A DNA stretch of 63,791 bases, counting the filler, from Leucoraja erinacea (lineage: Eukaryota): NCBI RefSeq assembly GCF_028641065.1. It is 3 parts of 3 records of this genome, joined end to end, with 100 filler letters (N's around TTAATTAATTAA, not from the genome) between each part and the next. Parts side by side here need not be neighbours in the genome. Positions count along the whole stretch, not along the records: positions 1 to 31,932 come from NW_026575785.1; 2 more parts are not named here. The stretch is one strand, 5' to 3'. Each line of letters opens with the position of its first letter. Position 1 is the first letter of the stretch. Position numbers and translations under genes: made by a program. A model generated the notes under the pieces. It saw nothing but the letters and a program-made list of their open reading frames with translations. It made no database searches and was not told the DNA's origin. Shown here piece by piece: positions 5,439 to 32,032 of this stretch.

Positions 5439-8400
5439 TTACGCAGAAGATTTCGTCAATCCATCAGCTGAAAAAAAAAAACATGAAGTACAAGTTCAGT
5501 TTATTGTCACGTGTACCAAGGAACAGTTGAAGGGAAGGAAATAGACGACGTTTCCGGTCTGAAGAAGGGTCTCGACCCAAAACGTCACCTATTCCTTTTT
5601 CATCACAGATCCTGCAGCCCTGCCCCGCTGAGTTACTCCAGCTTTTTGCATCTATATTCGAACCTATATACATAGCAAAAGGATTTGAGTGTTGGAGCAG
5701 GGAGGTTCTACTGCAGTTGTACAGGGTCTTGGTGAGACCACACCTGGAGTATTCCGTACAGTTTTGGTCTCCTAATCTGAGGAAGGACATTCTTGCCATA
5801 GAGGATTTGAGTCTAGGAGCAGGGAGGTTCTACTGCAGTTGTACAGGGTCTTGGTGAGACCACACCTGGAGTATTGTGTACAGTTTTGGTCTCCTAATCT
5901 GAGGAAGGACATTCTTGCCATAGAGGATTTGAGTATAGGAGCAGGGAGGTTCTACTGCAGTTGTACAGGGTCATATTGCCATAGAGGGAGTACAGAGAAG
6001 GTTCACCAGACTGATTCCTGGGATGGCAGGACTTTCATATGAAGAAAAAGACTGGATAGACTCGGTTTGTACTCGCTAGAATTTAGAAGATTGAAGGGGG
6101 GATCTTATAGAAACTTACAAAATTCTTAAGGGGTTGGACAGGCTAGATGCAGGAAGATTGTTCCCGATGTTGGGGAAGTCCAGGACAAGGGGCCACACAC
6201 ACAAGTTTAAGGGGGAAATCTTTTAGGACCGAGATGAGAAAAACATTTTTTTTCACACACAGAGAGTGGTGAATCTGTGGAACTCTCTGCCACAGAAGGT
6301 AGTTGAGGCCACACAGTTCATTGGCTATGTTTAAGAGGGAGTTAGATGTGGCCCTTGTGGCTAAAGGGATCAGGGGATGGAGAGAAGGCAGGTACAGGAT
6401 ACTGAGTTGGATGATCAGCCATGATCGTGTTGAATGGCGAATGGTGCAGGCTCGAAGGGCCGAAAGGCCTCTACTCCTGCACCTAGTGTCTATGTTTCTA
6501 TGTTTCTAAGTCTATTCCTGTGTCTTGTATTACCTGAATCTCCGCTGGAATCTGAGCTGTTGGACGTATTAGAGTGCACACTCCCACCGCATGTGTAGGA
6601 TCGGCATAACCCAGTCTCCTTATTGAAGCCTACTGTGGAAAGAGCAAAGTCACATTGTATTGCATTTCATTTATTACTGTCATAGAAACATAGACAATAG
6701 GTGCAGGAGTAGAGGCCATTCGAGCCTGCACCATCCGCCATTCAATACGATCACGGCTGATCATCCAACTCAGTATCCTGTACCTGCCTTCTCTCCATAC
6801 CCCCTGATCCCTTTAGCCACAAGGGCCACATCTAACACCCTCTTACAGCAGGCAGTAAAGAAAGCAAATGGTATGTTAGCTTTCATTGCAAAAGGATTTG
6901 AGTATAGGAGCAGGGAGGTTCTACTGCAGTTGTACAGGGTCTTGGTGAGACCACACCTGGAGTATTGCATACAGTTTTGGTCTCCAAATCTGAGGAAGGA
7001 CATTATTGCCATAGAGGGAGTGCAGAGACGGTTCACCAGACTGATTCCTGGGATGGCAGGACTGTCTTATGAAGAAAGACTGGATAGACTTGGTTTATAC
7101 TCTCTAGAATTTAGGAGATTGAGAGGGGATCTTATAGAAACTTACAAAATTATTAAGGGGTTGGACAGGCTACATGCAGGAAGATTGTTCCCGATGTTGG
7201 GGAAGTCCAGGACAAGGGGTCACAGCTTAAGGATAAGGGGGAAATCCTTTAAAACCGAGATGAGAAGAACTTTCTTCACACAGAGAGTGGTGAATCTCTG
7301 GAACTCTCTGCCACAGAGGGTAGTTGAGGCCAGTTCATTGGCTATATTTAAGAGGGAGTTAGATGTGGCCCTTGTGGCTAAGAGGATCAGGGGGTATGGA
7401 GAGAAGGCAGGTACGGGATACTGAGTTGGATGATCAGCCATGATCATATTGAATGGCGGTGCAGGCTCGAAGGGCCGAATGGCCTCTACTCCTGCACCTA
7501 ATTTCTATGTTTCTATGTTAAATATAGCCAATGAATTGTGGTGGCCTCAACTACCTTCTGTGGCAGAGAATTCCACAGATTCACCACTCTCTGTGTGTGA
7601 AAAAAAATGTTTTTCTCATCTCATCTCAGTCCTAAAAGATTTCCCCCTTATCCTTAAACTGTGTGTGTGTGGCCCCTTGTTCTGGACTTCCCCAACATCG
7701 GGAACAATCTTCCTGCATCTAGCCTGTCCAACCCCTTATGAATTTTGGGGGAGTCCAGAACCAGGGGCCACAGTTTAAGAATGACAAATAAATTGAATCT
7801 TGAATCTTGAATCTTGAGAATAAGGGGTCGGCCATTTAGAACGGAGACGAGGAAACACTTTTTCACACAGAGTTGTGAGTCTGTGGAATTCTCTGCTTCA
7901 GAAGGCGGTGGAGGCCGGTTCTCTGGGTGCTTTCAAGAGAGAGCTAGATAGGGCTCTTAAAGATAGCGGAGTCAGGGGATATGGGGAGAAGGCAGGAACG
8001 GGGTACTGATTGGGGATGATCAGCCACGATCACATTGAATGGCAGTGCTGACTCGAAGGGCCGAATGGCCTCTACTGCACCTAGTGTCTGTTGTCTATTG
8101 TCTAATTTGTGGAGACCAAATCACGGGATGGATTTAAGAGAATTAGATAGAGCTCTAGGGGCTAGTGGAGTCAAGGGATGTGGGGAGAAGGCAGGCACGG
8201 GTTATTGATTATGGATGATCAGCCATGATCGCAATGAATGGCGGTGCTGGCTCGAAGGGCCGAATGGCCTCCTCCTGCACCTATTTTCTATGTTTCGATG
8301 TTTCTGATGGAAGATGGGGTGGTATATTATGCTTGTATAAAAGCTATTGAGACTTTTGGCTCACCTGTTGGAGTAACACCTGACTTCGTTCCACCTGTGC

Positions 8401-11400
8401 AAAGAAGTAAAGAGAATACATATTTCGTATCAATATTGAAACAAGCTCCTCAAGTTCCTATTAAATCTTCCCCCCCCTCACGTTAAACCTGCAGTATGAC
8501 GTTTAGTTCTTAATTCCCCTACTCTGGGCAAAAGAACTGTGCGTCTACCCGATCTATTCCTCTCATGAGCTTATACACCTCCATAAATTTACTCCGTATC
8601 AAGTAAGCATGCAGGTACAGCAGGCAGTGAAGAAAGCCAATGACCTGTTGGCCTTTATAACTAGAGGAGTTGAGTACAGGAGCAAAGAGGTCCTTCTGCA
8701 GTTGTACAGGGCCCTGGTGAGACCATACCTGGAGTATTGTGTGCAGTTTTGGCCTGTTGGCTTTCATAACAAGAGGAGTTGAATACAGGAGCAAAGAGGT
8801 CCTTCTGCAGTTGTACAGGGCCCTGGTGAGACCACACCTGGAGTATTGTGTGCAGTTTTGGTCAGAACAAGAGGAGTTGAGTATAGGAGCAAAGAGGTCC
8901 TTCTGCAGTTGTACAGGGCCCTGGTGAAACCACACCTGGAGTATTGTGTGCAGTTTTGGCCCATTGGCCTTCATAACAAGAGAAGTCGAGTATAGGAGCA
9001 AAGAGGTCCTTCTGCAGTTGTACAGGGCCCTGGTGAGACCACACCTGGAGTATTGTTTTGGTCATAACAAGAGGAGTTGAGTACAGGAGCAAAGAGGTCC
9101 TTCTGCAGTTGTACAGGGCCCTGGTGAGGCCACACCTGGAGTATAGTGTGCAGTTTTGGTCTGCTAATTTGAGGAAGGACATCAGGGACCTGTACAACTG
9201 CTGAAGGACCTCTTTGCTCCTATATTCGACTCCTCTTGTTATAAAGGCCAACACGCCATTGGCTTTCTTCACTGCCTGCTGCACCTGCATGCTTACTTTC
9301 ATAGACTGATGTACAAGGACCCCCAGATCCCCTTTTCCCAACTTCCCAATTTAGATAGTAGACTTAACCTACCATGTAAGAGCCAGCAATGAATCACCGT
9401 GGCCACCACCGATGCGGAGATTCCCAGTATTCCCATTACACTTCCGATGATAATCAAGGCTTCATTCGACACTGCCAGGTTGCGTTCTGTTGAGAAGACA
9501 CTTTGTGAAGTGCAAATAACTATTCAGTTAGAGTTTCGAGATACAGCAAGAGTTTCGAGATACGCCCCAGAATTTAGATAGTCTGGCACATTGGCCTTCT
9601 TCAATTCCTGGACCAGAACACCGATGCAATTATCAAGAAAGCACATCAGCGCCTCTACTTCCTGAGAAGATTACGGAGAGTCGGTTTGTCGAGGAGGACT
9701 CTCTCGAACTTCTACAGGTGCACAGTAGAGAGCATGCTGACCAGTTGCATCGTGGCTTGGTTCGGCAATTTGAGCGCCCTGGAGAGGGAGAGACTACAAA
9801 AAGTAGTAAACACTGCCCAGTCCATCATCGGCTCTGACCTTCCTTCCATCGAGGGGATTTATCGCAGTCGCTGCCTCAAAAAGGCTGGCAGTATCATCAA
9901 GGACCCACACACCATCCTGGCCACACACTCATCTCCCTGCTACCTTCAGAAGAAGGTACAGGAGCCTGAAGACCGCAACGTCCAGGTTCAGGAATATCTA
10001 CTTCCCCACAGGTTCAGGAATAGCTACTTCCCCACAGCCATCAGGCTATTAAACCTGGCTCGGACAAAACTCTGATTATTAATAGCCCATTATCTGTTAT
10101 TTGCACCTTATCAGTTTATTTATTCATGTGTGTGTATATATTTATATCATGGTATATGGACACACTGATCTGTTCTGTAGTAAATGCCGTCTATGTTCTG
10201 TTGTGCTGAAGCAAAGCAAGAATTTCATTGTCCTATACAGGGACACATGACAATAAACTCCCTTATCTGGATGAGGGAATTGAAGGCAATATCTCCAAGT
10301 TTGCAGATGACACGAAGCTGGGGGGCAGTGTTAGCTGTGAGGAGGATGCTAGGAGACTGCAAGGTGACTTGGATAGGCTGGGTGAGTGGGCAAATGTTTG
10401 GCAGATGCAGTATAATGTGGATAAATGTGAGGTTATCCATTTTGGTGGCAAAAACAGGAAAGCAGACTATTATCTAAATGGTGGCCGACTAGGAAAAGGG
10501 GAGATGCAGCGAGACCTGGGTGTCATGGTACCCCAGTCATTGAAAGTAGGCATGCAGGTGCAGCAGGCAGTGAAGAAAGCGAATGGTATGTTAGCTTTCA
10601 TAGCAAAAGGATTTGAGTATAGGAGCAGGGAGGTTCTACTGCAGTTGTACAGGGTCTTGGTGAGACCACACCTGGAGTACTGCGTACAGTTTTGGTCTCC
10701 AAATCTGAGGAAGGACATTATTGCCATAGAGGGAGTGCAGAGAAGGTTCACCAGACTGATTCCTGGGGTGTCAGGACGGTCTTATGAAGAAAGACTGGAT
10801 TGACTTGGTTTATACTCTAGAATTTAGGAGACTGAGAGGGGATCTTATAGAAACTTACAAAATTCTTAAGGGGTTGGACAGGCTAGATGCAGGAAGATTG
10901 TTCCCGATGTTGGGGAAGTCCAGGACAAGGGGTCACAGCTTAAGGATAAGGGGGGAAATCCTTTAAAACCGAGATGAGAAGAACTTTTTTTCACACAGAG
11001 AGTGGTGAATTCTCTGGAACTCTCTGCCGCAGAGGGTAGTCGAGGCCACAGTTCATTGGCTATATTTAAGAGGGAGTTAGATGTGGCCCTTGTGGCTAAG
11101 GGGATCAGGGGGTATGGAGAGAAGGCAGGTACGGGATACTGAGTTGGATGATCAGCCATGATCATATTGAATGGCGAATGGTGCAGGCTCGAAGGGCCGA
11201 ATGGCCTCTACTCCTGCACCTAATTTCTATATTTCTATGTTTCTAAACTCTCTTGAGTCTTGAGTATTCTGGCACTGTGTCGATCGTCAGGCCTGCTGTG
11301 ATCTTTTCACGAATATGTATCACTTACCTAGAGGTATGAAGAGCTTCCCCTTGAGGGCCTCGTGTTCCACTTGACAGACGTACGTCCCGCGATGGCCGTT

Positions 11401-14400
11401 TAGCGGGAGCACGCTCCTGACTTGGAAAGTCCCGTCCCTTTGAGGGACCACGTCGACAGTCTCCTGCCCCTTCTTCACCAGCTCTCCGTCTCTGACCCAG
11501 CTCACATTGACGTGGCGGGGGAAGAACCCACTCGCCTGGCACACCAGGTAGCCTTGTGCCAGCCTCCTCCGGGTGTAAGCCCTGGTGTAGGTCGGAGCTG
11601 CACAAACATCGGGGGGGAACGAGGCACAGGTTGAAAGCAGCTTGGATTAGAGACACAGAGAAACATAGACAATAGGTGCAGGAGTAGAGGCCATTCGGCC
11701 CTTCGAGCCAGCACCGCCATTCAATGTGATCATGGCTGATCATCCCCAATCAGTACCCCGTTCCTGCCTTCTCCCCACATCCCCTGACTCCGCTATCTTT
11801 AAGAGCCCTATCTAGCTCTCTCTTGAAAGCATCCAGAGAACATGCCTCCACCGCCCTCTGAGGCAGAGAATTCCACAGACTCACAACTCTCTGTGAGAAA
11901 AAGTGTTTCCTCGTCTCCGTTCTAAATGGCTTACTCCTTATTCTTAAACTGTGTGTGTGTGTGGCCCCTGGTTCTGGACTCCCCCAACATCGGGAACATG
12001 TTTCCTGCCTCTAGCGTGTCTCCAGGTGTGGTCTCATATCTTATAGAAACTTACAAAATTCTTAAAGGGTTGGACAGGCTAGATGCAGGAAGATTGTTCC
12101 CGATGTTGGGGAAGTCCAGAACAAGGGGTCACAGTATAGGGGACCAAAACTGTACGCAATACTCCAGGTGTGGTCTCACCAAGACCCTGTACAACTGCAG
12201 TAGAACCGAGTCTATCCAGTCTTTCTTCATATCGAGAGCCTGCTGACATACTGCATTACAGCATGGTATGGCAGCTGCACCATGGCAGACAGGTAGAGGC
12301 TTCAGAGGGTAACCAGGTCAGCGCAGAGGATCATTGGCTGCCCTCTCCCCTCCCTGATGGACATCTACACCTCCCGCTGCCTTAGCAGGGCAAAGAAGAT
12401 CATCAAAGACAGCTCCCATCCTGCGTTTGGACTGTTCGACCTGCTGCCCTCTGGAAGGCGCTATAGGTGCATCAAATCCAGGACAAACAGACTCAGGAAT
12501 AGTTGCTTTCCGAGAATTATATCTACCATAAATTCAAATTCACACATGCACTGACTACAACGCCCAACACGGACTTCCATCTGTATATATGTATATATGA
12601 ATGTAGCGCCGCAGAATTTGTGCACCTATATTCCCCCCCCCCCCCCATCTCCCTTCCGTTTTTTGTTTTTTCTGTTTCTTGTTTTTTGTGCTAAATTGTA
12701 TGTATGCACTGAGTACGAGCAGCTTTCAGTTTCACTGTACATGTATAGTGACAATAAATGGCATATCTAAATATCTAAATATGAAAGTCCTGACGTCCCA
12801 CCCTGACTTGACTTGAACGGGGTGAGGAGGGAAAGACAGGTGGACAAAAATGCTGGAGAAACTCAGCGGGTGAGGCAGCATCTATGGGACACCGACCTCT
12901 CCTCTCCTGGGTGACGTTGGTGAGGGCAGCCAGGCGTTTGATTTTATCGCAGAGAACGGACACCAGTTGGGGGACGGCCTTCACGAAGTGGGGGTTGGCG
13001 TTGCGCCCGTTTACCAGCGACTGGGCGTAGGGCTGGGTGGCGATGAACGACATGTTGCCCAGCTGGTAGTACACGATGGTCTCTCCATCGTAGCCGTCTA
13101 CCCAAAGCACGACCGTCTGCTGACCCCGCTGTCTGCAGCCACAAAGCTGGTGCATAACATGCAGGCCTGCAACGAAACACAACACAATCTTACTTAGTTC
13201 ACGGGCTCGTAAGATGTGTAAGAAAGTGCCGGTAAAATCGAAGGTATAACTACTGGCTGCTAACAAGTGCTTACAGTGGCAGTTAACAAATTGATCGGCA
13301 CAAAATACAGGAGTAACTCAGCGGGTCAGGCAGCATCTCGCGAAACATGTTCCCGATGTTGGGGGAGTCCAGAACCAGGGGCCACACACATACACACAGT
13401 TTAAGAATAGGATTGAGGAAAGATTGAAAAGACTCGGCTTGACTTCAGAATGAAAAGACAGAAGTTTAGGGGTAACATGTTTAGGGAACTTCTTTACTCA
13501 GAGAGTGGTAGCGGTGTGGAATGAGCTTCCGGTGGAAGTGGTGGAGGCAGGTTCGTTGGTATCATTTAAAAATAAATTGGATAGGAATATGGATGAGAAG
13601 GGAATGGAGGGTTATTGAAAGTAGTCATTGAAAGTAGGCATGCAGGTGCAGCAGGCAGTGAAGAAAGCGAATGGTATGTTAGCTTTCATTGCAAAAGGAT
13701 TTGAGTCTAGGAGCAGGGAGGTTCTACTGCAGTTGTACAGAGACCACACCTGGAGTATTGCGTACAGTTTTGGTCTCCAAATCTGAGGAAGGACATTATT
13801 GCCATAGAGGGAGTGCAGAGACGGTTCACCAGACTGATTCCTGGGATGTCAGGACTGTCTTATGAAGAAAGACTGGATAGACTTGGTTTATACTCTCTAG
13901 AATTTAGGAGACTGAGAGGGGATCTTATAGAAACTTACAAAATTCTTAAGGGGTTGGACAGGCTAGATGCAGGAAGATTGCTCCCGATGTTGGGGAAGTC
14001 CAGGACAAGGGGTCACAGCTTAAGGATAAGGGGGTAATCCTTTAAAACTGAGATGAGAAGAACTTTTTTCACACACAGAGTGGTGAATCTCTGGAACTCT
14101 CTGCCACAGAGGGTAGTTGAGGTCACAGTTCATTGGCTATATTTAAGAGGGAGTTAGATGTGGCCCTTGTGGCTAAGGGGATCAGGGGTTATGGAGAGAA
14201 GGTAGGTATGGAATACTGAAATGGATGATCAGCCATGATCATATTGAATGGCGGTGCAGGCTCGAAGGGCCGAATGGCCTCTACTCCTGCACCTAATTTC
14301 TATGTTTCTATGTTTCTATGTTAACAAATCGTTCGGCACAAAATACAGGAGTAACTCAGCGGGTCAGGCAGCATCTCGCGAAACATGTTCCCGATGTTGG

Positions 14401-15072
14401 GGGAGTCCAGAACCAGGGGCCACACACACACACACACAGTTTAAGAATAAGGGGTTTAAGAATAACAATGCGGAAAGATTGAAAAGACTAGGCTTGACTT
14501 CAGAATTAAGGGACAGAAGTTTAGGGGTAACATGAGGGGGAACTTCTTTACTCAGAGAGTGGTAGCGGTGCGGAATGAGCTTCCAGTGGAAGTGGTGGAG
14601 GCAGGTTCGTTGGTATCATTTAAAAATAAATTGGATAGGCATATGGATGAGAAGGGAATGGAGGGTTATGGTATGAGTGCAGGCAGGTGGGACTAAGGGG
14701 AAAAAGTTGTTCAGCACGGACTTCTAGGGCCGAGATGGCCTGTTTCCGTGCTGTAATTGTTATATGGTTATATGGTATTCACTGGAGTTTAGAAGGATTA
14801 GGGGACTGAGATGGATGATCAGCCATGATCATATTGAATGGCGAATGGTGCAGGCTCGAAGGGCCGAATGGCCTCTACTCCTGCACCTAATTTCTATGTT
14901 TCTATGAACGAGGTCTGATTAACACGTTGGCCGGGCTCACCTCAACGGAGCTGCAGGTCTAATAGACACAGGACAGAAGAAGTAGAAGGAACAACTCACC
15001 ACTTTGATTGCTGGCAAACGCATCTACGATCGAAACAAACGCATGAAGAATGGCCACGAGAGTCCCTCTCAT
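5439..15072 (-). CDS. MHC W-category beta chain (WB-like), complete, about 294 aa, 7 coding exons: 15072-15000 leader, 13166-12897 beta1, 11597-11328 beta2 IgC1, 9486-9373 CP/TM, 8394-8365, 6632-6534, 5467-5439 cytoplasmic/stop
   Basis: All exons have canonical AG/GT ends, all introns are phase 1, and the frame is open to TAA. Leader [20 protein letters not shown]. beta1 [11 protein letters not shown]...DGYDGE...LCDKIK resembles class I alpha2. beta2 [10 protein letters not shown]...VSW...[10 protein letters not shown]...[10 protein letters not shown] resembles class I alpha3. [23 protein letters not shown] has a GxxxGxxG pattern. Confidence 0.88.
5671..7517 (+). mobile_element. CR1/HER1 LINE 3' fragments flanking the WB exon 6534-6632
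   Basis: ORF2 C-terminal peptides, e.g. ORF 6660-7424. Confidence 0.85.
8600..9180 (+). repeat. Tandem reiteration of a ~100-110 nt CR1 ORF2 segment
   Basis: Repeated GGAGCAAAGAGGTCCTTCTGCAGTTGTACAGGGCCCTGGTGAGACCACACCTGGAGTATTG. Confidence 0.85.
9605..10260 (+). mobile_element. Rex1/Babar-like LINE 3' fragment
   Basis: [21 protein letters not shown]...[13 protein letters not shown]...[15 protein letters not shown]. Confidence 0.8.
10262..11245 (+). mobile_element. CR1/HER1 LINE with RT C-terminus
   Basis: [12 protein letters not shown]...[16 protein letters not shown]. Confidence 0.92.
11328..11597 (-). CDS. WB beta2 exon (IgC1, class I alpha3-like)
   Basis: 270-nt exon [38 protein letters not shown]...[11 protein letters not shown]...[18 protein letters not shown]. 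Confidence 0.93.
12240..12760 (+). mobile_element. Rex1/Babar-like LINE 3' fragment
   Basis: [35 protein letters not shown]. Confidence 0.8.
12897..13166 (-). CDS. WB beta1 exon (groove domain, class I alpha2-like)
   Basis: 270-nt phase 1/1 exon; H-x5-GC start, GYDG motif and a distal Cys forming the MHC groove disulfide pattern. Confidence 0.88.
13617..14320 (+). mobile_element. CR1/HER1 LINE 3' fragment
   Basis: ORF2 C-terminal peptide plus 3' tail. Confidence 0.88.
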
Positions 15073-17032: not shown

Positions 17033-17156
17033 GAAATGCGTGGTACATAACTCGGCTTAACTTACGGGAGGTTTTGTGGGTTGTTCCCTGCACCTGCTAA
17101 AACTCTTCGCGATGTTTGCTAACCAGGAGATCCTCTGTACAAGTCTCCGGGGGAAC

Positions 17157-20100
17157 ATGGGTCTCAGAGGCTTGCTAACGGCCCTGCTGTCTCTGGCTGC
17201 AGCCGTGGCAGAGATTGGTGAGTAGGAAGCTTACAAGATTGGGGCAAAAAATGCTGGAGTAACTCAACATTTTGGGACAGGCAGCATCTCTGGACAGAAG
17301 GAACAGGCAACGTTTTGGGTCGGGGTCCTTGTTCAGACATACTTTTGGTTAATGGTATCAACAGTAGACAAAAGGGGCAGGAGTAGAGGCCATTCGGCCC
17401 TTCGGGCCAGCACTGCCATTCAATGTGATCATGGCTGATCATCCCCAATCAGTACCCCGTTCCTGCCTTCTCCCCTGACTCCGCTATCTTTAAGAACCCT
17501 ATCTAGCTCTCTCTTGATCACGGCCGATCATCCACAATCAGTACCCCGTTCCTGCCTTCTCCCCATACCCCCTAACTCCGCTATCTTTAAGAGCCCTATC
17601 TAGCTCTCTCTTGAAAGAATCCTCTCCAGATAACCGGCCTCCACCACCCTCTGAGGCAGAGAATTCCACAGACTCACCACACTCTGTGAGAAAAAGTGTT
17701 TCCTCGTCTCCGTTCTAAATGGCCGACCCCTTATTCTTAAACTGTGTGTGTGTGTGGCCCCTGGTTCTGGACCCCCCCAACATCTGGAAAAGATGTGGAA
17801 TGCGGAACAGAATTCCACAGACTCGCCACTCTCTGTGAGAAAAAGTGTTTCCTCGTCTCCGTTTTAAATGGCTTACTCCTTAGAAACATAGAAAATAGGT
17901 GCAGGAGTAGGCTATTCGGCCCTTCGAGCCTGCACCGCCATTCGATATGATCATGGCTGATCATCCAACTCAGTATCCCATTCCTGCCTTCTCTCCATAC
18001 CCCCTGATCCCCTTAGCCACAAGGGCCACATCTAACTCCTTATTCTTAAACTGTGTGTGTGGCCCCTGGTTCTGGACTCCCCCAACACCGGGAACATGTT
18101 TCCTGCCTCTAGCGTGTCCAAACCCTTAAAAATCTTATATGTTTCAATGAGATACCCTCTCATCCTTCTAAACTCCAGAGTGTACAAGCCCAGCCGCTCC
18201 ACATTCTCTCAGCATATGACAGTCCCGCCATCCCGGGAATTAACCTGGTGAACCTACGCTGGGCTCCCTCAATAGCAAGAATGTCCTTCCTCAAATTAGG
18301 GGACCAAAACTGCACACAATACTCCAGGTGTGGTCTCACCAGGGCCCTGTACAACTGCAGAAGGACCTCTTTGCTCCTATACTCGACTCCTCTTGTTTTG
18401 AAGGCCAACAGGCCAAAACTGCACACAATACTCCAGCTGTGGTCTCACCAGGGCCCTGTACAACTGCAGAAGGACCTCTTTGCTCCTATACTCAACTCCT
18501 CTAGTTTTGAAGGCCAACAGGCCAAAACTACACACAATACTCCAGGTGTGGTCTCACTAGGGCTCTGTTCAACTGCAAATGAGGGGTCCTTTGCTCCATA
18601 GATGCTGCTTCACCCGCTGAGTTTCTCCAGCGCTTTTGACTTGACTAACATTATCGATTCTCTTCTCCGACATTCTCTCGCCCCCCCCACCAGAGATCGA
18701 GACGGTGTCCGAGCATTTCGTCTACGGGCGGAGCACGTCGGGCTCGGAGAAGACTCTGGACATCCTCAGCGTGAACTCTGTGCCCTTCCTCGCCTACGAC
18801 CACGAGGCGCGCGCCTTCTCCATCAACGGCCAGGCCACGGACGGGAGGGAGGAGCTGGGCGAGGAGGAGGTGACCTACTTTGTGCAGAGGGCCGAGGGGT
18901 TTCAGAACCAAATCCGGAGCGACATGAGTGAGCTGGCGGCCGGCAACGATAACCAACCCATCGGCAGCAGTAAGTGGGCGTGCGAGGAAATTGGAGGCCT
19001 CTTCTTGCGAATGAATCGTAAATAAACCAAAGGAATGTAGACAAAAAGTGCTGGAGCAACTCGGCGGGTGAGGCAGCATCTATCTAAATGGCGTCATGTT
19101 GGGAAAAGGGGATCTGGGGGGGTCCTTGTACATCAGTCTATGAAAGTAAGCATGCAGGTACAGCAGGCAGTGAAGAAAGCCAATGGCATGTTGAGAGAGT
19201 ACAGAGGAGATTTACTAGAATGTTGCCTGGGTTTCAGCAACTAAGTTACAGAGAAAGGTTGAACAAGTTAGGGTTTTATTCTTTGGAGCACAGAAGGTTA
19301 AGGGGGCACTTGATAGAGGTCTTTAAAATGATGAGAGGGATAGACAGAGTTGACGTGGAAAAGCTTTTCCCACTGAGAGTAGGGAAGATTCAAACAAGGG
19401 GACATGACTTGAGAATTAAGGGACTGAAGTTTAGGGGTAACATGAGGGGGAACTTCTTTACTCAGAGAGTTGTAGCTGTGTGGGATGAGCTTCCAGTGAA
19501 GGTGGTGGAGGCAGGTTCGTTTTTTATCATTTAAAAGTAAATTGGATAGTTATATGGATGGGAAGGGAATGGAGGGTTATGGTCTGAGCGCAGGTATATG
19601 GGACATGGGGAGATTATGTGTTCGGCACGGACTAGAAGGGTCGAGATGGCCTGTTTCCGTGCTGTAATTGTTATATGGTTATATGTTGGCCTTCATAACA
19701 AGAGGAATCGAATATAGGAGCAAAGAGGTCCTTCTGCAGTTGTACAGGGCCCTAGTGAGACCACACCTGGAGTATCGTGTGCAGTTTTGGCCTGTTGGCC
19801 TTCATAACAAGAGGAGTTGAGTATAGGAGCAAAGAGGTCCTTCTGCAGTTGTTTCCTGCCTCTAGCGTGTCCAAGCCCTTAAAATAATCTTATATGTTTC
19901 AATACGATATCCCCTCATCCTTCTAAACTCCAGAGTGTACAAGCCCACAGCCGCTCCATTCTCTCAGCATATGACAGTCCCGCCATCCCAGGAATTAACC
20001 TGGTGAACCTACGCTGGGCTCCCTCAATAGCAAGAATGTCCTTCCTCAAATTAGGGGACCAAAACTGCACACAATACTCCAGGTGTGGTCTCACTAGGGC

Positions 20101-23100
20101 TCTGTACAACTGCAGAAGGACCTCTTTGCTCCTATACTCAACTCCTCTTGTTATGAAGGCCAACAGGCCATAACTGCACACAATACTCCAGGTGTGGTCT
20201 CACTAGGGCCCTGTACAACTGCAGAAGGACCTCTTTGCTCCTATTTTCGATTCCTCTTGTCAAAGCCTCACCTCTTGTTGCAGAGAAACCGATCGCCCAC
20301 ATCTACACAGAAGAGGACTACGTCCTGCAGAGAGCCAACACCCTGTACTGTTTCGCCGAGAGGTTCTACCCTTTCGAGATTGAGCTCCAGTTCCTGGTCA
20401 ACGGCCAACCCTTCACCGGCCCCGTACACTCGTCCCCACTGCTGGTCGAGAGAGACTGGACCTTCAACATCCTGAAGTACATCCGCATCGAGCCTCAACG
20501 CGGGGACACTTTCAGCTGCCTTGTGGCTCACGTCAGCCTCGATAAAGCCCTGACCCTCTCGCTTGGTAAGTGGCTCAGTTTGGTTTGTTGTCACGATGTG
20601 GTGGCCGATTGGGAAAGGGGGAGATGCAGCGAGACCTGGGTGTCATGGTACACCAGTCATTGAAGGTAGGCATGCAGGTGCAGCAGGCAGTAAAGAAAGC
20701 GAATGGTATGTTAGCTTTCATAGCAAAAGGATTTGAGTCTAGGAGCAGGGAGGTTCTACTGCAGTTGTACAGGGTCTTGGTGAGACCACACCTGGAGTAT
20801 TGCGTACAGTTTTGGTCTCCAAATCTGAGGAAGGACATTATTGCCAAAGAGGGAGTGCAGAGAAGGTTCACCAGACTGATTCCTGGGATGTCAGGACTGT
20901 CTTATGAAGAAAGACTGGATAGACTCGGCTTGTACACGCTAGAATTTAGAAGATTGAGAGGGGATCTTATAGAAATTTACAAAATTCTTAAGGGGTTGGA
21001 CAGGCTAGATGCAGGAAGATTGTTCCCGATGTTGGGGAAGTCCAGGACAAGGGGTCACAGCTTAAGGATAAGGGGGAAATCCTTTAAAACCGAGATGAGA
21101 CGAACTTTTTTCACACAGAGAGTGGTGAATCTCTGGAACTCTCTGCCACAGAGGGTAGTTGAGGCCAGTTCATTGGCTATATTTAAGAGGGAGTTAGATG
21201 TGGCCCTTGTGGCTAAAGGGATCAGGGGGTATGGAAAGAAGGCAGGTACGGGATACTGAGTTGGATGATCAGCCATGATCATATTGAATAGCGGTGCAGG
21301 CTCGAAGGGCCGAATGGCCTACTCCTGCACCTAATTTCTATGTTTATATGTTTCTATGTTGTCAAAAGGGGAGATGCTACGAGACCTGGGTGTCATGGTA
21401 CACCATTCATTGAAAGTAGGCATGCAGGTGCAGCATGCAGTTATACATAGAAACATAGAAATTAGGTGCAGGAGTAGGCCATTCGGCCCTTCGGCCGACC
21501 CCTTTATTCTTAAACTGCGTGTGTGGCCCCTGGTTCTGGCCTCCCCCAACATCTGGAACAGATGTGGAATGTGGAACAGAATTCCGCAGACTCACAACTC
21601 TCTGGGTGGAAAGGTTTCTCCTCATCTCAGTCCTAAATGGCCACAGATTCACACAACTCTCTGGGTGGAAAAGTTTCTCCTCGTCTCCGTTCTAAATGGC
21701 CGCCCCCCCTTATTCCTAAACTGCGTGTGGCCCCTGGTTCTGGACTCCCCCAAAATCGGGAACATAGAAACATAGAAAATAGGTGCAGGAGTAGAGGCCA
21801 TTCGGCCCTTTGAGCCTGCACCGCCATTCAATATGATCATGGCTGATCATCCAACTCAGTATCCTGTACCTGCCTTCTCTCCATACCCCCTGATCCCTTT
21901 AGCCACAAGGGCCACACCTAACTCCCTCTTAAATATAGCCAATGAACTGTGGCCTCAACTACCTTCTATGGCAGAGAATTCCACAAATTCACCACTCTCT
22001 GTGTTGGAAAAAAAATGTTTTTCTCATCTCGGTCCTAAAAGGTCGGGGTGGGACTAGTGTAGAGGGGACATGTTGGTCGGGGTGGGACTAGTGTAGACGG
22101 GGCATGTTGGTCGGGGTGGGACTAGTGTAGATGGGGCATGTTGGTCGGGGTGGGACTAGTGTAGATGGGGCATGTTGGTCGGGGTGGGACTAGTGTAGAT
22201 GGGGCATGTTGGTCGGGGTGGGACTAGTGTAGGGGGGGCATGTTGGTCGGGGGGGGACTAGTGTAGATGGGGCATGTTGGTCGGGGTGGGACTAGTGTAG
22301 ATGGGGCAACACAGAGGAGGGGTGGGACTAGTGTAGATGGGGCATGTTGGTCAGGGTGGGACTACTGTAGATGGGGCATGTTGGTCGGGGGGGGACAAGG
22401 TGTAGATGGGGCATGTTGGTCGGGGTGGGACTAGTGTAGATGGGGCATGTTGGTCAGGGGGGGGACTAGTGTAGATGGGGCATGTTGGTCGGTGTGGGAC
22501 TAGTGTAGATGGGGCATGTTGGTCGGGGTGGGACTAGTGTAGCTGGGACATGTTGGCCGGCGTGGGCAAGTTGGGCCGAAGGGCTTGTTTCAAGCTGGAT
22601 AGAGTGGATGTGGAGAGGATGTTTCCACTAGTGGGAGGTCCAGGACTAGAGGTCACAGCCTCAGATTTAAAGGACGTGCTTATAGGAAAGAGATGAGGAG
22701 AAATTTATTTAATCAGAGGGTGGTGAATCTGTGGGATTCGTTGCCACACAGACGGCGGTGGAGGCCACAAGTCAGTGGATATATTTAAGGCAGAGATAGA
22801 TAGATTGTTGATGAGTGCGAGTGTCAGGGGTTATGGGGAGAAGGCAGGAGAATGGGGTTGGGAGGGAGAGATAGATCAGCCGTGATTGAATGTCGGAGTA
22901 GACTTGATGGGCCGAATGGCCTAATCCTGCACCAGCATTCCCTTTGCACATCCGATTTTGGGATTCTCTCCCCATTTATAAAGCAGTCTACTCCGACTAA
23001 CAAAATCCATGACTCTACCAAGATTTGTGATAGGACTCTAAGGGATATTGGGCCTAAGGGGATGGCACTGCATGTGACAAATGATATGTAGACCGCATGT

Positions 23101-26100
23101 AATAAGGAATTAACATGCCGTCTTGATTTTTTCTGCAGATCGGCCTACTCGAACACCCATCTCGGGGATCGTTGTCTGTGTGGTCGGAGTTCTTGTGGGA
23201 GTTCTTGGGCTAATGCTAACCTTGTACTTGGGCAGAGAGATACACAAAAGGTAAGATCAAAGGGCCATAAGCCGAATTAGGCCATTCGGCCCATCGAGTC
23301 TACTCCACCATTCAATCACGGCTGATAGAGGGAGTACAGAGAAGGTTGACCAGACTGATTCCTGGGATGGCAGGACTTTCATCTGAAGAAAGGCTGGATA
23401 GACTCGGCTTGTACACGCTAGAATTTAGAAGATTGAGGGGGGATCTTATAGAAGGGGTTGGACAGGAAGATTGCTCCCGATGTTGGGGAAGTCCAGAACA
23501 AGGGGTCACAGTTTAAGGATAAGGAGGAAATCTTTTAGGACCGAGATGAGGAAAAAAAAATTCACACAGAGAGTGGTGAATCTGTGGAATTCTCTGCCAC
23601 AGTAGGTAGTTGAGGCCACACAGTTCATTGGCTATATTTAAGAGGGAGTTAGATGTGGCTCTTGTGGCTAAAGGGGTCAGTGGGTATGGAGAGAAGGCAG
23701 GTACGGGATACTGAGTTGGATGATCAGCCGTGATCATATTGAATGGCGAATGGTGCAGGCTCGAAGGGCCGAATGGCCTCTACTACTGCACCTATTTTCT
23801 ATGTATCTATGTATATTTAAGAGGGAGTTAGATGTGGCCCTTGTGGCTAAAGGGCTCAGGAGGTATGGAGAGAAGGCAGGTACAGGATACTGAGTTGGAT
23901 GATCAGCCATGATCATATTGAATGGTGAATGGCGCAGGCTCGAAGGGCCGAATGGCCTCTACTCCTGCTAGTTTCTAGTTTCTATATGTTTCTATGATCT
24001 ATCTCTCCCTCCCAACCCCATTCTCCTGCCTTCTCCCCATAACCCCTGACACCCGCACTCATCAACAATCTATCTATCTCTGCCTTAAATATATCCACTG
24101 ACTTGTGGCCTCCACCGCCGTCTGTGGCAACGAATCCCACAGATTCACCACCCTCTGGCTAAAGAAATTCCTCCTCATCTCCTTCCGATAAGCACATCCT
24201 TTAATTCTGAGGCTGTGCCCTCTAGTCCTAGACTCTCCCACTAGTGGAAACATCCTCTCCACATCCACTCTATCCAGGCCTGTACGTTTCAATGAGGTCC
24301 TCCCCCCCCACCTCCTCAATCTTCTAAACTCCTGCGAGTACAGGCCCAGTGCCGACAACCGCTCATCATAGGTTAGAGTTTGTCCAGCATCTACCATCGA
24401 TTTTTCAAGCAGTTCTTTGTTAATCATAGGTCAACCCACTCATTCCTGGGATCATTCTTGTAAACCTCCTCTGGGCCTTCTCCAGAGCCAGCACACCCTT
24501 CCTCAGATACAGGGCCCAAAACTGCTCACAATCCACCAAATGCTGGCCTTATAGAGCTGTTTTTGTATACAAGCCCTCTTGAAATAAATGCCAGCATTCG
24601 GTTTGCTTTCTTTACAACCGATTCAATAGACAATAGACAATAGATGCAGGAGTAGAGGCCATTCGGCCCTTCGAGCCAGCACCGCCATTCAATGTGATCA
24701 CGGCTGATCATCCACAATCGGTACCCCGTTCCTGCCTTCTCCGCATATCCCCTGACTCCGATATCTTTAAGAGCCCTATCCAGCTCTCTCTTCAAAGCAT
24801 CCAGAGAACCGGCCTCCACCGCCCTCCGAGGCAGAGAATTCCACAGACTCACAACTCTCTGCGAGAAAAAGTGTTTCCTCGTCTCCGTTCTAAATGGCCG
24901 ACTCCTTATTCTTAAACTGTGGCCCCTGGTTCTGGACTCCCCCAACATCGGGAACACGTTTCCTGCCTCTAGCGTGTCCAAGCCCTTAATAATCTTACAT
25001 GTTTCAATGAAATTCCCTCTCATCCTTCTAAACTCCAGAGTGTACAAGCCCAGCCGCTCCATTCTCTCAGCATATGACAGTCCCGCCATCATGGGAATTA
25101 ACCTGGTGAACCTATGCTGGGCTCCCTCAATAGCAAGAATGTCCTTCCTCAAATTAGGGGACCAAAACTGTACACAATACTCCAGGTGTGGTCTCACTAG
25201 GGCCCTGTATAACTGCAGAAGGACCTCTTTGCTCCTATAGTCAACTCCTCTTGTTATGAAGGCCAACGGGCCAAAACTGTACACAATACTCCAGGTGTGG
25301 TCTCACCAGGGCCCTGTACAACTGCAGAAGGGCCTCTTTGCTCCTATGCTCAAATCCTCTTGTTATGAAGGCCAACGGGCCAAAACTGCACACAATACTC
25401 CAGGTGTGGTCTCACCAGGGCCCTGTACAACTGCAGAAGGACCTCTTTGCTCCTAGACTCAACTCCTCTTGTTATGAAGGCCAACAGGCCAAAACTGCAC
25501 ACAATACTCCAGGTGTGGTCTCACCAGGGCCCTGTACAACTGCAGAAGGACCTCTTTGCTCCTGTACTCAACTCCTCTTGTTATGAAGGCCAACGGGCCA
25601 AAACTGCACACAATACTCCAGGTGTGGTCTCACCAGGGCCCTGTACAACTGCAGAAGGGCCTCTTTGCTCCTATATTCGATTCCTCTTGTTATAAAGGCC
25701 AACATGCCATTGGCTTTCTTCACTGCCTGCTGTACCTGCATGCTTACTGTCATAGACTGATGAACAAGGACCCCCAGATCCCGTTGTACTTCCTGTTTTC
25801 CCAACTTGCAGATGAACCTTTTTGGGAATTCTGCAACAGGATTCTGCAATATGTGTTCATTATCAACCTTATCCCACTACATGTATTTGTTTGGGGAATT
25901 CTGCAACAGCATTCCCTTTGCACATCTGATTCAGGATTCTCTCCCCATTTAGTAGTCTGCACCTTTACTCCGACTACCAAAATCCATGACTCTACCAAAA
26001 TTTGTGAAAGGACTGTGGGTCGGTGGTTTAACTCAGTGACTAACCTGACTTTCTCTTTTACTTTGACATTTTCTGCAGGAACGTGGCTGAAATCCCTGTT

Positions 26101-26148
26101 CATAAGATTATGAAAATTGAAGGCCTGAAAAAGGAAAATCCAAAATAG
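17157..26148 (+). CDS. MHC W-category alpha chain (WA-like), complete, about 266 aa, exons 17157-17217 leader, 18694-18969 alpha1, 20284-20565 alpha2 (beta2m-like IgC1), 23139-23250 CP/TM, 26079-26148 cytoplasmic/stop
   Basis: Canonical splice sites with compatible phases. Leader [19 protein letters not shown] (an in-frame upstream ATG exists at 17112). alpha1 has no Cys. alpha2 KPIAHIYT...[23 protein letters not shown]...[14 protein letters not shown]...[29 protein letters not shown] fits the class II alpha CxxGxxxGxxG motif. AATAAA at 26165-26170. The last exon is the least certain. Confidence 0.88.
18694..18969 (+). CDS. WA alpha1 exon (groove domain)
   Basis: 276-nt phase 1/1 exon [13 protein letters not shown]...[19 protein letters not shown]...; polypyrimidine-CAG acceptor and GTAAGT donor. 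Confidence 0.85.
20284..20565 (+). CDS. WA alpha2 exon (beta2-microglobulin-like IgC1)
   Basis: 282-nt exon; NTLYC, FYP, F in place of the C-strand Trp (FLVNG, compare beta2m LLKNG), DWTF (compare beta2m DWSF). Confidence 0.92.
20598..21360 (+). mobile_element. CR1/HER1 LINE 3' fragment
   Basis: ORF 20570-21259. Confidence 0.9.
22041..22560 (+). repeat. 34-bp G-rich minisatellite, about 15 copies
   Basis: Unit GGTCGGGGTGGGACTAGTGTAGATGGGGCATGTT, running into a LINE/SINE 3' tail. Confidence 0.93.
24625..25800 (-). mobile_element. CR1 LINE fragment with an internal 109-bp tandem array (about 25190-25690)
   Basis: ORF 24526-25284; repeated ORFs offset by 109 nt (25338, 25447, 25556). Confidence 0.88.
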
Positions 26149-27835: not shown

Positions 27836-28561
27836 GTAGGTCGAAGGGCCGAATGGCCTACTCCTGCACCTAATTTCTATGTTTCTATATCCCCTGACTC
27901 CGCTATGTTTTAAGATGCTAGTCGTAGGCACCCGTGGCCTCAAGTAGGTCGGGGCGTTTTTCTAGCCTGATGAAAAATGTCCATGAGTTAAAAAAGATTG
28001 TGAAAGTGGGACAGAACCTTTACAGCGCTGGAGACCCAGGTTCAATCCTGACCTCTGCCTGGACGGAGATTAACGATCCCGTTACTGCTATCCAAATGTG
28101 CGACTGTTTCGTCGCAAATCGCAGGCACGGAAATCGCTATCAAAACATGCGGGGGACACGATTCCTTGGCGGCCGTGCGCGCGCACGTGCACGCACGCGC
28201 GAGGCTTTGGCCGCGGGCCCTGTGGACGGTAACGTCGGGAGCTGACCTGGTTGGTGACCGACTCCGAACTCCAGCAACAGCAGCTTCGTCCGCCTCGAAT
28301 CGCGGGGCTTGAATCGGCCAGTTCGCGGGGTCTTTCATCGACCGGCGGGGGCTTCAACATCCGGAGCCTCGATCGCCTCGATGGAGCGGTTTGATTTTAA
28401 GCCTCGCCGGGCGATGAAAGGCCCCGCGAACTGGCCGATTCAGCCCGTAGAAAGCGTCTGATATAAAGTCCGGATCGCAAAACACGGGGATTGTTGGCAC
28501 ATCAGTTTAAACATGAGGTCTTCAAGAGGCTGGTCGCCGGATTTTATTGGGCGATTCGTTT

Positions 28562-31500
28562 TTAAACTTCTGACACATTTACAGAGACGGGGCTCGGCAA
28601 AGATGTGACGTCTTCACAAAGTTGGGTGTCTTCACGCACTGCACTGACACCTGGGAAGTAAGGAAGAGACGGGATGATGCAGTCACAAACACAAGGCGGC
28701 AGCAGTCCAGTATTAGCTGTGTAAACCTCAGCGTTACATTGCCCAGACTCCGTTTGGTAGATTCCTGTCAGTGAAGTGCGCTCTGGTTAACTTTTATGAT
28801 ACATTATCTTTGGAACGTACTTTTGGAACGAAGACGAGGAGGAATTTATTTTGTCAGAGGATAGAAACCTCGAAAATAGGTGCAGGAGTAGGCCCTTCGG
28901 CCCTTCGAGCCTGCACCGCCATTTCAATGTGATCATGGCTGATCATCCAACCTCAGTATCCCATCCCTGCCTTCTCTCCATACCCCCTGATCCCTATAGG
29001 CACAAGGGCCACATCTAACTCCCTCTTAAATATAGCCAATGAACTGTGGCCTCAACTACCTTCTGTGGCAGAGAGTTCCACAGATTCACCACTCTCTGTG
29101 TGGAAAATGTTTTTCTCATCTCGGTCCTAAAAGATTTCCCCCTTATCCTTAAACTGTGGCCCCCTGTTCTGGACTCCCCCAACATCGGGAACAATCTTCC
29201 TGCATCTAACCCTTAAGAATTTTGTACGTTTCTATAAGATCCCCCCTCAATCTTCTAAATTCTAGCGAGTAGCGGAAGAAGGAAGGAAGAGGCAGAGACA
29301 ATGGTTGTGGGAGAGTATCTGCAGTTTCTCTCTCGTTTCAATGTTGTTATTGTACTGCCTTGTCACTTGCCTCTGGCTAATGAGGGCGGCACTTGTGGGT
29401 TAACGGCAGTGTTGCTTCCACAAGGGCCTGTCCCTCTTGGGGATTTTTTTCCGCGACTGCCAGCATCATCGACTGACTCATCGGGTCACCGAATAAAATC
29501 GGGGCGTGACGACCTATTGAAGCGCGGTGTTTCATCGAGTGTGACAACGTTTTTTTCGTCGCCGCTGGATTTTGAAATGTTCCAAATCTTTTGGCGACCC
29601 TGATATGTCGCCGGAAGTCGCCGAAAAAGATCGGCAAGCGGGGCAGGCCCTTTACAGTGCCCGAGACCCGGGTTCAATCCTGACCGTGTCTTTGATAGGC
29701 TTTTAGATGGGCAGATGGGAGAGCAGGAAAATAGAGGGATAAGAATCGTGTACATTGTTTAAACCAGCGTCTTGTTCGGCACAGACATTGTGGGCTGAAG
29801 GGACCCGTTCTCGTGTTATATTGTACCTTGCTCTATGTTTGTTCGTTAAGGGCCAGAGGCGATATTCACGCTTAGCCATTTGCGTTTGACGAGGAGGTGT
29901 TTACCTGAAGGCATATCTGGAAGGGTCATGAGTTGGCTCTGGATCGGCCCAAGTTGCGAGTCTCGGCTCTGGTTCACTGGAGAAAGATAATCGCATGTTT
30001 CCGCTTTGGTGGAAAGAATAAGAAGGCAGATTATTATCTGAATGGTGTCGGGTTAGGAAAAGGGGAAGTACAAGGAGACTCACTCTGGCAATGGAGGAGG
30101 CCCAGGACAGAAAGGACGGAGTCAGAATGGGAGGGGGGGATGGGGGGGGAGGGGGTTGAAGTGCTGAGCCACCGGGAGATCGGGTTAGTTATTGCGAACC
30201 GAGCGGAGGTGTTGGGCGAAGCGATCGCCGAGCCTGCGCCTGGTCTCACCGATGTAGAGCAGCCGACACCTAGAGCAGCGGATGCAATAGACGAGGCTGG
30301 AGGAGGTGCAGGCGAACCTCTGCCGCACCTGGAACGACTGCTTGGGTCCTTGGATGGAGTCGAGGGGGGGAGGTAAAGCGACAAGTGTAGCGTTTCTTGC
30401 GGTTGCAAGGGAAAGTACCAGGGAAGGGGGTGGTGGTTAGGGTGGGAAGGGACGAATGGACCAGGGAGTTGCGGAGGGAGCGGCCTCTACGGAAAGGGGA
30501 GGAGATGGGAGCATCTGCAGTTCCTTCTTAAACAATAGATAGGGTAGATAATTGCCATAGAGGGAGTGCAGAGAAGGTTCACCAGACTGATTCCTGGGAT
30601 GTCAGGACTGTCTTATGAAGAAAGACTGGATAGACTTGGTTTATACTCTCTAGAATTTAGGAGATTGAGAGGGGATCTTATAGAAACTTACAAAATTCTT
30701 AAGGGGTTGGACAGGCTAGATGCAGGAAGATTGCTCCCGATGTTGGGGAAGTCTAGGACAAGGGGTCACAGCTTAAGGATAAGGGGGAAATCCTTTAAAA
30801 CCGAGATGAGAAGAACTTTTTTCACACAGAGAGTGGTGAATCTCTGGAACTCTCTGCCACAGAGGGTAGTTGAGGCCAGTTCATTGGCTATATTTAAGAG
30901 GGAGTTAGATGTGGCCCTTGTGGCTAAGGGGATCAGGGAGTATGGAGAGAAGGCAGGTACGGGATACTGAGTTGGATGATCAGCCATGATCATATTGAAT
31001 GGCGGTGCAGGCTCGAAGGGCCGAATGGCCTCTACTCCTGCACCTAATTTCTATGTTTCTATAATCAGAACCTTTTTCCTAAGGTATGCAAAGTCACCAC
31101 ATAAATGGTACCGAAGTACAGTATACTTGCATCCATGCAAATTGTGGAATTAGGAAGGGACCGAGACTAGGTTATAAAGGAAAACTTTTCCTAGACTGAC
31201 GAGGATATGCAAAAATGTTCCTACCTTTCCATCTCATGACTCCTCCAGATAGAGCAATCAGAATACCGACTAATCCAGCCATTATTCCAACCACATATCC
31301 ATAGACTGGTCCGTTTTGATTCTGGTGAACTGGAGACAAAGAGCTAGAGTCAGAAGATGTTACATTAAACGCTACTCTATCAGAAGGAATATTGTGGGAG
31401 ATGGGTCTCGACCCGAAAAGTCGCCCATTCCTTCTCTCCAGAGATGCTGCCTGGCGCGCTGAGTTACTCCAGCATTTTGTGACTATGTTGGCAACTCTAT

Positions 31501-31932
31501 CAGACTTCGGTTACCCCCCCCCCCACCACGAGATTCCGGCCTGCAAAGTCGTCCGTGGAAGTCAGTCGGTGATGTGAATGGATCTGTTGTTTGTGGCCGG
31601 GACCGGCAGGAGAGGAGGGAGCGGGGAAACGCAGAAGTCCCGATTCTGATCCTTACCCCAAACTGCAGTCAGGTTGTCAGGCACGCTCGTGTGTGTGATG
31701 TGGCAGGAATAGGTGTCGCCGATTCCACTGGGGTCAACACTAAGCTGTAGTCTCATCTGGAACGTCCCGTCAAAGTTGGGCAGAATGTTGCTCCTCAGCA
31801 CCTCTTGGTCGATGTCTTTGCCGTTCCGCAGCCAGGTGGTGTTGATGTCCATCGGGTAAAACCCATCCACTCTGCAGGTCAGGACCAAGGGATGTCCCTG
31901 TGCATTTGGACGCCTTGAGGTGATCGTGATCG
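28562..31932 (-). CDS. Second MHC gene, probably a divergent W-category beta chain, 5'-truncated at the linker: 31932-31657 IgC1, 31329-31225 CP/TM, 29976-29905 and 28650-28562 cytoplasmic/stop
   Basis: IgC1 PLVLTCRVDGFYPMDINTTWLRNG...ILPNFDGTFQMR...YSCHITHTSV (class I alpha3-type P..DGTFQ). TM YGYVVGIMAGLVGILIALSGG is glycine-patterned. Phase-1 exons are open to TAA; AATAAA on - at 28548-28543. Groove exons are not visible, so a nonclassical class I chain is not excluded. Confidence 0.75.
30080..30510 (-). mobile_element. Penelope-like element fragment (GIY-YIG region)
   Basis: Homologous to 36201-36734; SHSDSVLSVLGLLHCQ. Confidence 0.8.
30552..31062 (+). mobile_element. CR1/HER1 LINE 3' fragment
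   Basis: ORF 30566-30970. Confidence 0.9.
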
Positions 31933-32032
31933 NNNNNNNNNNNNNNNNNNNNNNNNNNNNNNNNNNNNNNNNNNNNTTAATTAATTAANNNNNNNNNNNN
32001 NNNNNNNNNNNNNNNNNNNNNNNNNNNNNNNN
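31933..32032. other. Artificial 100-nt scaffold-joining linker
   Basis: 44 N + TTAATTAATTAA (stops in all six frames) + 44 N; cuts through an exon. Confidence 0.95.

What the first reader, a model, noticed from the sequence alone, without database searches (positions are those of the whole stretch)
28562..31932. Second, highly divergent WB-like gene tail-to-tail with WA, suggesting a W-category cluster
It has the same orientation as the first WB, a class I alpha3-type IgC1 (ILPNFDGTFQ) and a class II-style GxxxGxxxGxxG TM. Its IgC1 differs strongly from the first WB and its tail is unrelated, suggesting an old second lineage. By analogy its own WA partner should lie upstream, beyond the linker. 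Poly(A) signals of WA (26165) and this gene (28548) converge about 2.4 kb apart.
Basis: partly seen in the sequence, partly recalled or inferred. Interest (0 to 1): 0.7.

Follow-up and report, generated by a model that had tools for sequence, protein, structure and literature searches.

The report
Known skate W-category beta gene (DS1)
This is the back half of a skate immune-receptor gene already listed in print, the DS1-type beta chain of the ancient 'W-category' MHC family, sitting in the kind of gene cluster already described for sharks and rays; its likely alpha-chain partner lies outside this piece of the assembly.

Summary
Real, but already known. The minus strand holds four exons: Ig C1 (31932-31657, cut by the scaffold end), transmembrane (31329-31225) and two tail exons (29976-29905; 28650-28562 with stop). 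The C1 domain matches the row 'little skate WB DS1 like 01' of Okamura et al. 2021 (Dataset S2) at 90 of 91 residues. The 179 residues read here are 176/179 identical to a little-skate RefSeq model. The window's other two genes are the known DS5-type WA and an Nds5L-type WB. Multi-pair W clusters are published for white shark, catshark and sawfish. DNA beyond the N-linker is another scaffold and holds neither the missing exons nor a WA. The likely partner is a DS10-type WA: in thorny skate a sister DS1 copy and a DS10-type WA have consecutive accessions on one contig. Open detail: skates have at least two DS1-type copies, and whether this one has its own WA was not seen. None of the 8 earlier scan notes shown (of 32 fitting) concerned W genes.

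The parts
31657..31932 (-). WB DS1-like: beta2 (Ig C1-set) exon, 5' end cut by the scaffold end; carries P57 and G61
   Evidence: exon-bounded contigs with 0 differences in two RNA?-labelled runs
31225..31329 (-). WB DS1-like: connecting peptide/transmembrane exon with class II beta-type glycines
29905..29976 (-). WB DS1-like: first cytoplasmic exon (72 nt, skippable; alternative acceptor at 30003 gives 99 nt)
   Evidence: matches RefSeq isoforms X2/X1 of little skate; X3 skips it
28562..28650 (-). WB DS1-like: last coding exon, stop TAA at 28564-28562
28543..28548 (-). candidate poly(A) signal of the DS1-like gene
   Evidence: AATAAA 14 bases behind the stop; use not shown
17157..26148 (+). 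WA DS5-like gene, five exons (17157-17217, 18694-18969, 20284-20565, 23139-23250, 26079-26148), tail-to-tail with the finding
   Evidence: alpha2 100% identical to RefSeq P0019 and the same as 'little skate WA DS5 like 01'
4400..15072 (-). first WB gene, Nds5L-type (exons 15072-15000, 13166-12897, 11597-11328, 9486-9373, 8394-8365, 6629/6632-6534, 5467-5438, last exon from 4600; its lower end is not fixed), head-to-head with WA
   Evidence: C1, groove and tail resemble the Nds5L rows of Datasets S1-S3 by eye
31933..32032 (.). artificial 100-base join (44 N + 12-base linker + 44 N) between unrelated scaffolds
   Evidence: same block again at 52059-52158; the RefSeq WA protein lies on a contig of exactly 31,932 bases

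Best explanation
These four exons are the 3' half of a skate WB DS1-like gene, a beta chain of the W-category of MHC molecules, whose product likely pairs with a DS10-type WA alpha chain to form a non-classical, class II-shaped receptor on the cell surface. Shown: exon structure, near identity to the published little-skate WB DS1 row and to RefSeq models, one-groove architecture in relatives, P57/G61 and the TM glycines. Inferred: the missing leader and groove exons lie past the scaffold end; the chain assembles with a WA through the TM glycines and the class I-type P57 contact (by analogy with the salamander WA/WB co-expression experiment in PMC8713811); the partner is DS10-type. The groove half of relatives has at most one cysteine and mostly E in place of D37, so classical peptide presentation is unlikely; a fixed ligand or a ligand-free receptor role is more likely (inference, untested).
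For: C1 equals 'little skate WB DS1 like 01' at 90 of 91 residues (row read, compared by eye; the row reads like P0002, which differs from the window only at residue 77 in this domain). 176 of 179 residues identical to XP_055486150 and 160 of 179 to XP_032871933. In 4 of 5 relatives measured, 86 residues lie between leader and C1 (106 in P0003). 4 of these 5 hit MHC_II_beta (2 above the Pfam cut-off) and 0 of 5 hit a V-set family. The paper lists a single beta1 domain for little-skate DS1. TM and tail align with shark DS1 rows (by eye). In a tree of 36 C1 domains it falls in the DS1-like set, 99/95, apart from 7 class IIB rows. Partner: thorny-skate DS1-like XP_032870119 and DS10-like XP_032870120 are consecutive and share a 17,663,302-base contig; catshark XP_038638469 (DS1 group) and XP_038638468 (DS10 group) are consecutive too. 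The shared names Nds5L/DS5 and Nds3L/DS3 leave DS10 for DS1 (my reading of the names).
Against: The 5' half of this very copy was not seen. The RefSeq model nearest to it (P0003, another contig of 170,706 bases) lacks a leader and has about 20 extra residues in its groove domain, so very similar copies may be damaged. The DS10 adjacency was seen for the sister copy (P0010, 137 of 155 identical), not for this copy, and only as accession order, without orientation. The tree group was gathered with this gene as query and labelled by me, and holds just one class I-like row. No read fell on the exons in 3 of 3 raw RNA runs (1-5% of each read, tissue unknown).
Confidence: 0.9

Rival explanations
1. 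It is a WB DS1-like gene, but a duplicate without an alpha gene of its own; it would share the one DS10-type WA with its sister copy, or pair with the neighbouring DS5-type WA.
For: Skates have at least two DS1-type copies (about 88% alike over 155 residues). In thorny skate the copy like this one shares a 1.9-Mb contig with WA DS5, while the other shares a 17.7-Mb contig with WA DS10. The extracted text of Verissimo's Fig. S5 lists two DS1-group WB and one DS10-group WA for sawfish.
Against: No search here could show absence: one search missed even the thorny-skate DS10 protein known. White shark shows the reverse imbalance (one DS1-group WB, two DS10-group WA) and catshark two of each; Hypanus has two DS10-type proteins. 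I read part 96 of 98 of that supplement only, as machine-extracted figure text.
Confidence: 0.2
2. The copy is a pseudogene, or the scaffold is an uncollapsed second haplotype of the locus on the 170.7-kb contig.
For: A 176/179-identical model lies on another contig of little skate and looks damaged at its 5' end. No exon reads in 3 of 3 raw RNA runs.
Against: All four exons are open with canonical splice sites. Two runs guessed to be RNA hold C1 contigs with 0 differences from the window, one ending exactly at the exon border. Being a haplotig would not change what the gene is.
Confidence: 0.12
3. It is the alpha3/TM/tail end of a non-classical class I heavy chain, or a tapasin/B7/SIRP-like V+C1 protein.
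For: The C1 has class I alpha3 marks (P57, G61), and the one class I-like row joins the DS1 set at 94/94 in the tree.
Against: Relatives at 85-99% identity in C1 have room for only one groove domain and no V-set hit. P57/G61 are defining marks of WB too.
Confidence: 0.02
4. It is a conventional class II beta chain, as the automatic RefSeq names say.
For: Names 'class II histocompatibility antigen, B-L beta chain-like'; class II domain layout and TM glycines.
Against: It has G, not the invariant class IIB W61, and has P57. It stays outside the class IIB rows in the tree. The groove of relatives lacks the cysteine pair.
Confidence: 0.01

Closest known systems
W-category beta chain WB DS1 (Okamura et al. 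[quoted passage not shown] Seen: main text parts 1-5 of 6, Dataset S2 parts 1 and 3, Dataset S3 parts 1-2, searched rows of Dataset S1; the SI Appendix PDF could not be read.
   Same: C1 identical at 90 of 91 residues; P57 and G61; DS1-type TM; two-exon tail with a skippable first exon (the blue-shark row lacks that part too).
   Different: One residue in C1 (H for Q). The skate TM/tail is not among the WB rows that I read in Dataset S3. Whether the skate gene order is drawn in SI Fig. S11 I could not see.
RefSeq models XP_055486149-51 (Leucoraja erinacea) and XP_032871931-34 (Amblyraja radiata)
   Same: 176 of 179 and 160 of 179 residues; the same three tail isoforms can be read from the window.
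   Different: The little-skate models lie on a 170,706-base contig, differ at 3-4 residues, lack a leader and carry a groove insertion; they are named class II beta by automatic annotation.
Elasmobranch W-type clusters (Verissimo et al. 2023, PMC10751288; passages on 'W-type' and part 96 of the supplement with Figs S3 and S5 as extracted text)
   Same: Several WA and WB genes side by side, with DS1-group and other WB lineages in one cluster, in white shark, catshark and sawfish.
   Different: Skates were not mapped there (thorny skate was dropped from their analysis); the flanking marker genes (WDR13, FTSJ1, WNK3) are not on this short scaffold as far as I looked.
Conventional MHC class II beta
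   Same: One groove domain, one C1, glycine-patterned TM.
   Different: No W61, has P57, groove without the cysteine pair, unrelated longer tail.

Membership tests
W-category WB | Class II-type architecture: leader, one membrane-distal domain, one C1, TM, tail | tested here: met
   Met in relatives at 59-99% C1 identity and for C1/TM/tail in the window; the leader and groove exons of this copy are off the scaffold.
W-category WB | G61 (no W61) in beta2 | tested here: met
   G in the motif LPNFDGTFQ; aligned with W of class IIB rows
W-category WB | P57 in beta2 | tested here: met
   same motif
W-category WB | A32, G35, D37 in beta1 | tested here: inconclusive
   Exon not in the window. Relatives: A32 and G35 in 5 of 5, D37 in 1 of 5 (E in 4); the published DS1 rows mostly have E there as well.
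W-category WB | Class II beta-type glycines in the TM | tested here: met
   GxxxGxxxGxxG at residues 101-112, in register with DS1 rows
W-category WB | Head-to-head WA partner gene | tested here: inconclusive
   Scaffold ends in the C1 exon; no WA or groove hit beyond the linker for 10 query proteins at E<0.5. Consecutive DS1/DS10 accessions for a sister copy in thorny skate.
W-category WB | Forms a surface heterodimer with WA | not testable with these tools
   Shown only for salamander WA/WB in PMC8713811.
WB DS1 lineage | C1, TM and tail group with DS1 sequences, not DS3 or Nds5L | tested here: met
   (by eye)
Class I heavy chain | Two groove domains before C1 | tested here: not met
   86 residues between leader and C1 in 4 of 5 relatives, 106 in one
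Conventional class II beta | Invariant W61 in beta2 | tested here: not met
   G at this place
Tapasin / B7 / SIRP-like | IgV domain before C1 | tested here: not met
   0 of 5 relatives hit a V-set family at E<0.1

The most novel reading that the evidence does not exclude
Skates duplicated the DS1 beta gene and this copy is an orphan with no alpha gene of its own, so that one WA chain is shared between several WB chains (or DS1 cross-pairs with the neighbouring DS5 alpha): combinatorial pairing inside the W-category, against the one-pair-one-molecule picture.
Probability: 0.2. Interest if true: 0.4.

Novelty: already known. Interest (0 to 1): 0.13.

Why it matters
The W-category is proposed as the link between MHC class II and class I, so its genes are of interest, but this gene, its lineage and the cluster are already in print. 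The window adds small things: the gene order Nds5L-WB / DS5-WA / DS1-WB on one skate scaffold, the skate tail exons, and signs of two or more DS1 copies in skates. Only unpaired or shared alpha chains would be news to a specialist.

Tried and rejected
No whole genome is held for the window, so the 5' half could not be fetched. tblastn of 18 DS1-type proteins and of WA proteins found no DS1 groove exon or further WA beyond 32032 (the few hits there have E 0.17-0.98). The look-up of sequencing runs: no RNA holder listed on record. Laying 14800-31932 was swamped by repeats. Three raw RNA runs gave no exon read in the 1-5% sampled, which says nothing on expression in immune tissue. The search with a sawshark DS10-type protein returned 3 hits of 3976 candidates and missed the thorny-skate one, so it cannot show absence. 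The tree left the first WB unplaced (long branch 1.87). Paper searches: 'W-category'+'MHC' 3 papers; 'MHC-W'+'cartilaginous fish' 0; 'W-type' set 2; 'Okamura/W-category/shark' loose set, top 20 of 462 listed; skate+W-type+MHC+Leucoraja 1, listing only. The 1992 shark alpha3-like paper was not held; I saw only its title in a reference list. No fold or complex job was sent: any alpha/beta pair would pass by likeness to solved class II structures, so it would not pick the partner. The search of earlier findings showed 8 of 32 notes, all on transposons.

Full report
Observation. The window is made of three scaffolds joined by identical 100-base blocks (44 N, a 12-base linker, 44 N) at 31933-32032 and 52059-52158. 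The finding lies at the right end of the first scaffold. On the minus strand I recover four exons with canonical splice sites and matching phase: 31932-31657, 31329-31225, 29976-29905 and 28650-28562, giving 179 open codons and a TAA at 28564-28562. The first exon is a C1-set Ig domain (E=6.9e-18) that begins about 9 bases short, because the scaffold ends there. The second holds a hydrophobic stretch with the GxxxGxxxGxxG pattern. The C1 shares 28 of 78 aligned residues with the first WB's C1; the two tails are no more alike than shuffles (107 of 1000 reach the score).

What it is. Okamura et al. [quoted passage not shown] Their Dataset S2 has a row 'little skate WB DS1 like 01' that matches the window's C1 at 90 of 91 residues (compared by eye; the one change is H for Q), and Dataset S1 lists a partial single groove domain for the same gene. 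The shark DS1 rows of Dataset S3 show the same TM and a tail whose first part is absent in one species. A protein search with the C1 exon gave 6 hits among 52 candidates. The nearest, a little-skate RefSeq model, is identical at 176 of 179 residues, tail included, and its three isoforms (long acceptor, short acceptor, exon skipped) can all be read from the window. Of 5 full-length relatives measured, 4 have 86 residues between leader and C1 and one has 106; 4 hit the class II beta groove family (2 above cut-off) and none a V-set family. In a tree of 36 C1 domains (33 of 177 stored proteins chosen and labelled by me, plus 3 from the window) the gene sits in the DS1-like set at 99/95, away from 7 class IIB rows; that set was collected with this gene as query, so the name rests on the paper's row, not on the tree.

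Neighbours. The plus-strand gene is the DS5-type WA: its alpha2 domain equals the paper's little-skate DS5 row (by eye) and a RefSeq protein whose contig is 31,932 bases long, the length of the window's first piece. This also shows that DNA after the linker is not contiguous. The first WB resembles the Nds5L rows (by eye). DS1 and Nds5L both occur in sharks and in rays, so the 'old second lineage' is right, and known. Clusters are known too: three presumed pairs in white shark, and 6 to 12 W genes in sawfish, white shark and catshark in Verissimo et al. 2023, Fig. S3. Cloudy-catshark rows for DS5, Nds5L and DS1 share the suffix '159K', which I read as one scaffold with the same three genes; the figure that would show it is in the SI Appendix, which I could not read. 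In thorny skate the DS1 copy most like this one and WA DS5 share a 1,908,759-base contig with near-consecutive accessions, and in Rhinoraja both share a 17.4-Mb contig.

Partner. Ten WA or WB proteins laid on the window gave no hit beyond the linker at E<0.5. A profile-free search with WA yielded a skate DS10-type WA, which is thorny-skate XP_032870120; a DS1-type WB, XP_032870119, is the accession before it on the same 17,663,302-base contig. Catshark XP_038638468/469 show the same pattern. This supports DS1 pairing with DS10. But that thorny-skate WB is the sister copy (137 of 155 residues identical to the window's), so an own WA for the window's copy remains unseen.

Expression. No run on record as RNA held the stretch. 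Two runs guessed to be RNA hold C1 contigs of 193 and 158 bases with no difference from the window, the second stopping at the exon border. One of them also holds a contig that covers 80 bases of the TM exon with 2 differences and continues, at the exon border, in letters that I read by hand as the last exon of the sister copy. Three raw RNA runs, sampled at 1-5%, had no read on the exons. This is modest support for spliced transcripts of both copies.

How it likely works. By its anatomy and by the salamander experiment in the paper (WA and WB mature and reach the surface only together), the product would be the beta half of a surface heterodimer, held by TM glycines and class I-type domain contacts. 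Relatives' groove halves have 0-1 cysteines and E for D37 in 4 of 5, and the paper reports that W subgroups lack full peptide-anchoring sets and high polymorphism. A non-classical role with a fixed ligand or none is therefore more likely than peptide presentation. This last step is inference; no ligand is reported in what I read.

Verdict. Observation confirmed, interpretation supported, novelty none: a published gene of a published lineage in a published kind of cluster. Interest 0.13. The one open point worth a look is whether skates carry a DS1 beta copy without its own alpha gene (probability about 0.2).

Noticed in passing
window 4400-15072 (-): The first WB is of the Nds5L type. No skate Nds5L row appears in the cartilaginous-fish WB block of Dataset S2 that I read or among the 5 skate rows of Dataset S1, so this skate member may not be listed there. 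Its C1 is a very long branch.
   Followed up: partly
P0005 and P0017 (Rhinoraja RefSeq isoforms) against window 12933-13167: Two gene models splice the DS1 transmembrane or tail exon into a frameshifted copy of the Nds5L groove exon (tblastn E about 1e-15). This implies an Nds5L-type gene or relic downstream on the same strand, as in the window, and either read-through transcripts or a modelling error.
   Followed up: no
P0003/P0008/P0009 (little skate, 170,706-base contig); P0004, P0010-P0012: Skates seem to hold two DS1 types about 88% alike, and little skate perhaps a third, near-identical copy whose model lacks a leader and has about 20 extra residues in the groove domain.
   Followed up: partly
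P0176, P0177 (Hypanus): Two DS10-type WA proteins with consecutive accessions on one 38.8-Mb contig, so the alpha partner is duplicated in a stingray.
   Followed up: no
window 27060-27720 (+): A decayed LINE reverse-transcriptase-like fragment lies between the two converging 3' ends; a related copy lies at 38290-39072 (-).
   Followed up: no
window about 35068-35176 and 35550-35660 (+), second scaffold: Exon-like open stretches, one lysine/glutamate-rich, of an unidentified gene unrelated to MHC.
   Followed up: no
window 22040-22560: Tandem array of a unit of about 30 bases in the WA intron between the alpha2 and TM exons.
   Followed up: no
RefSeq names: All named W-category proteins seen carry automatic 'class II' names, and several WA alpha chains are named 'beta chain-like', so name searches will miss or mislabel this family.
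   Followed up: no
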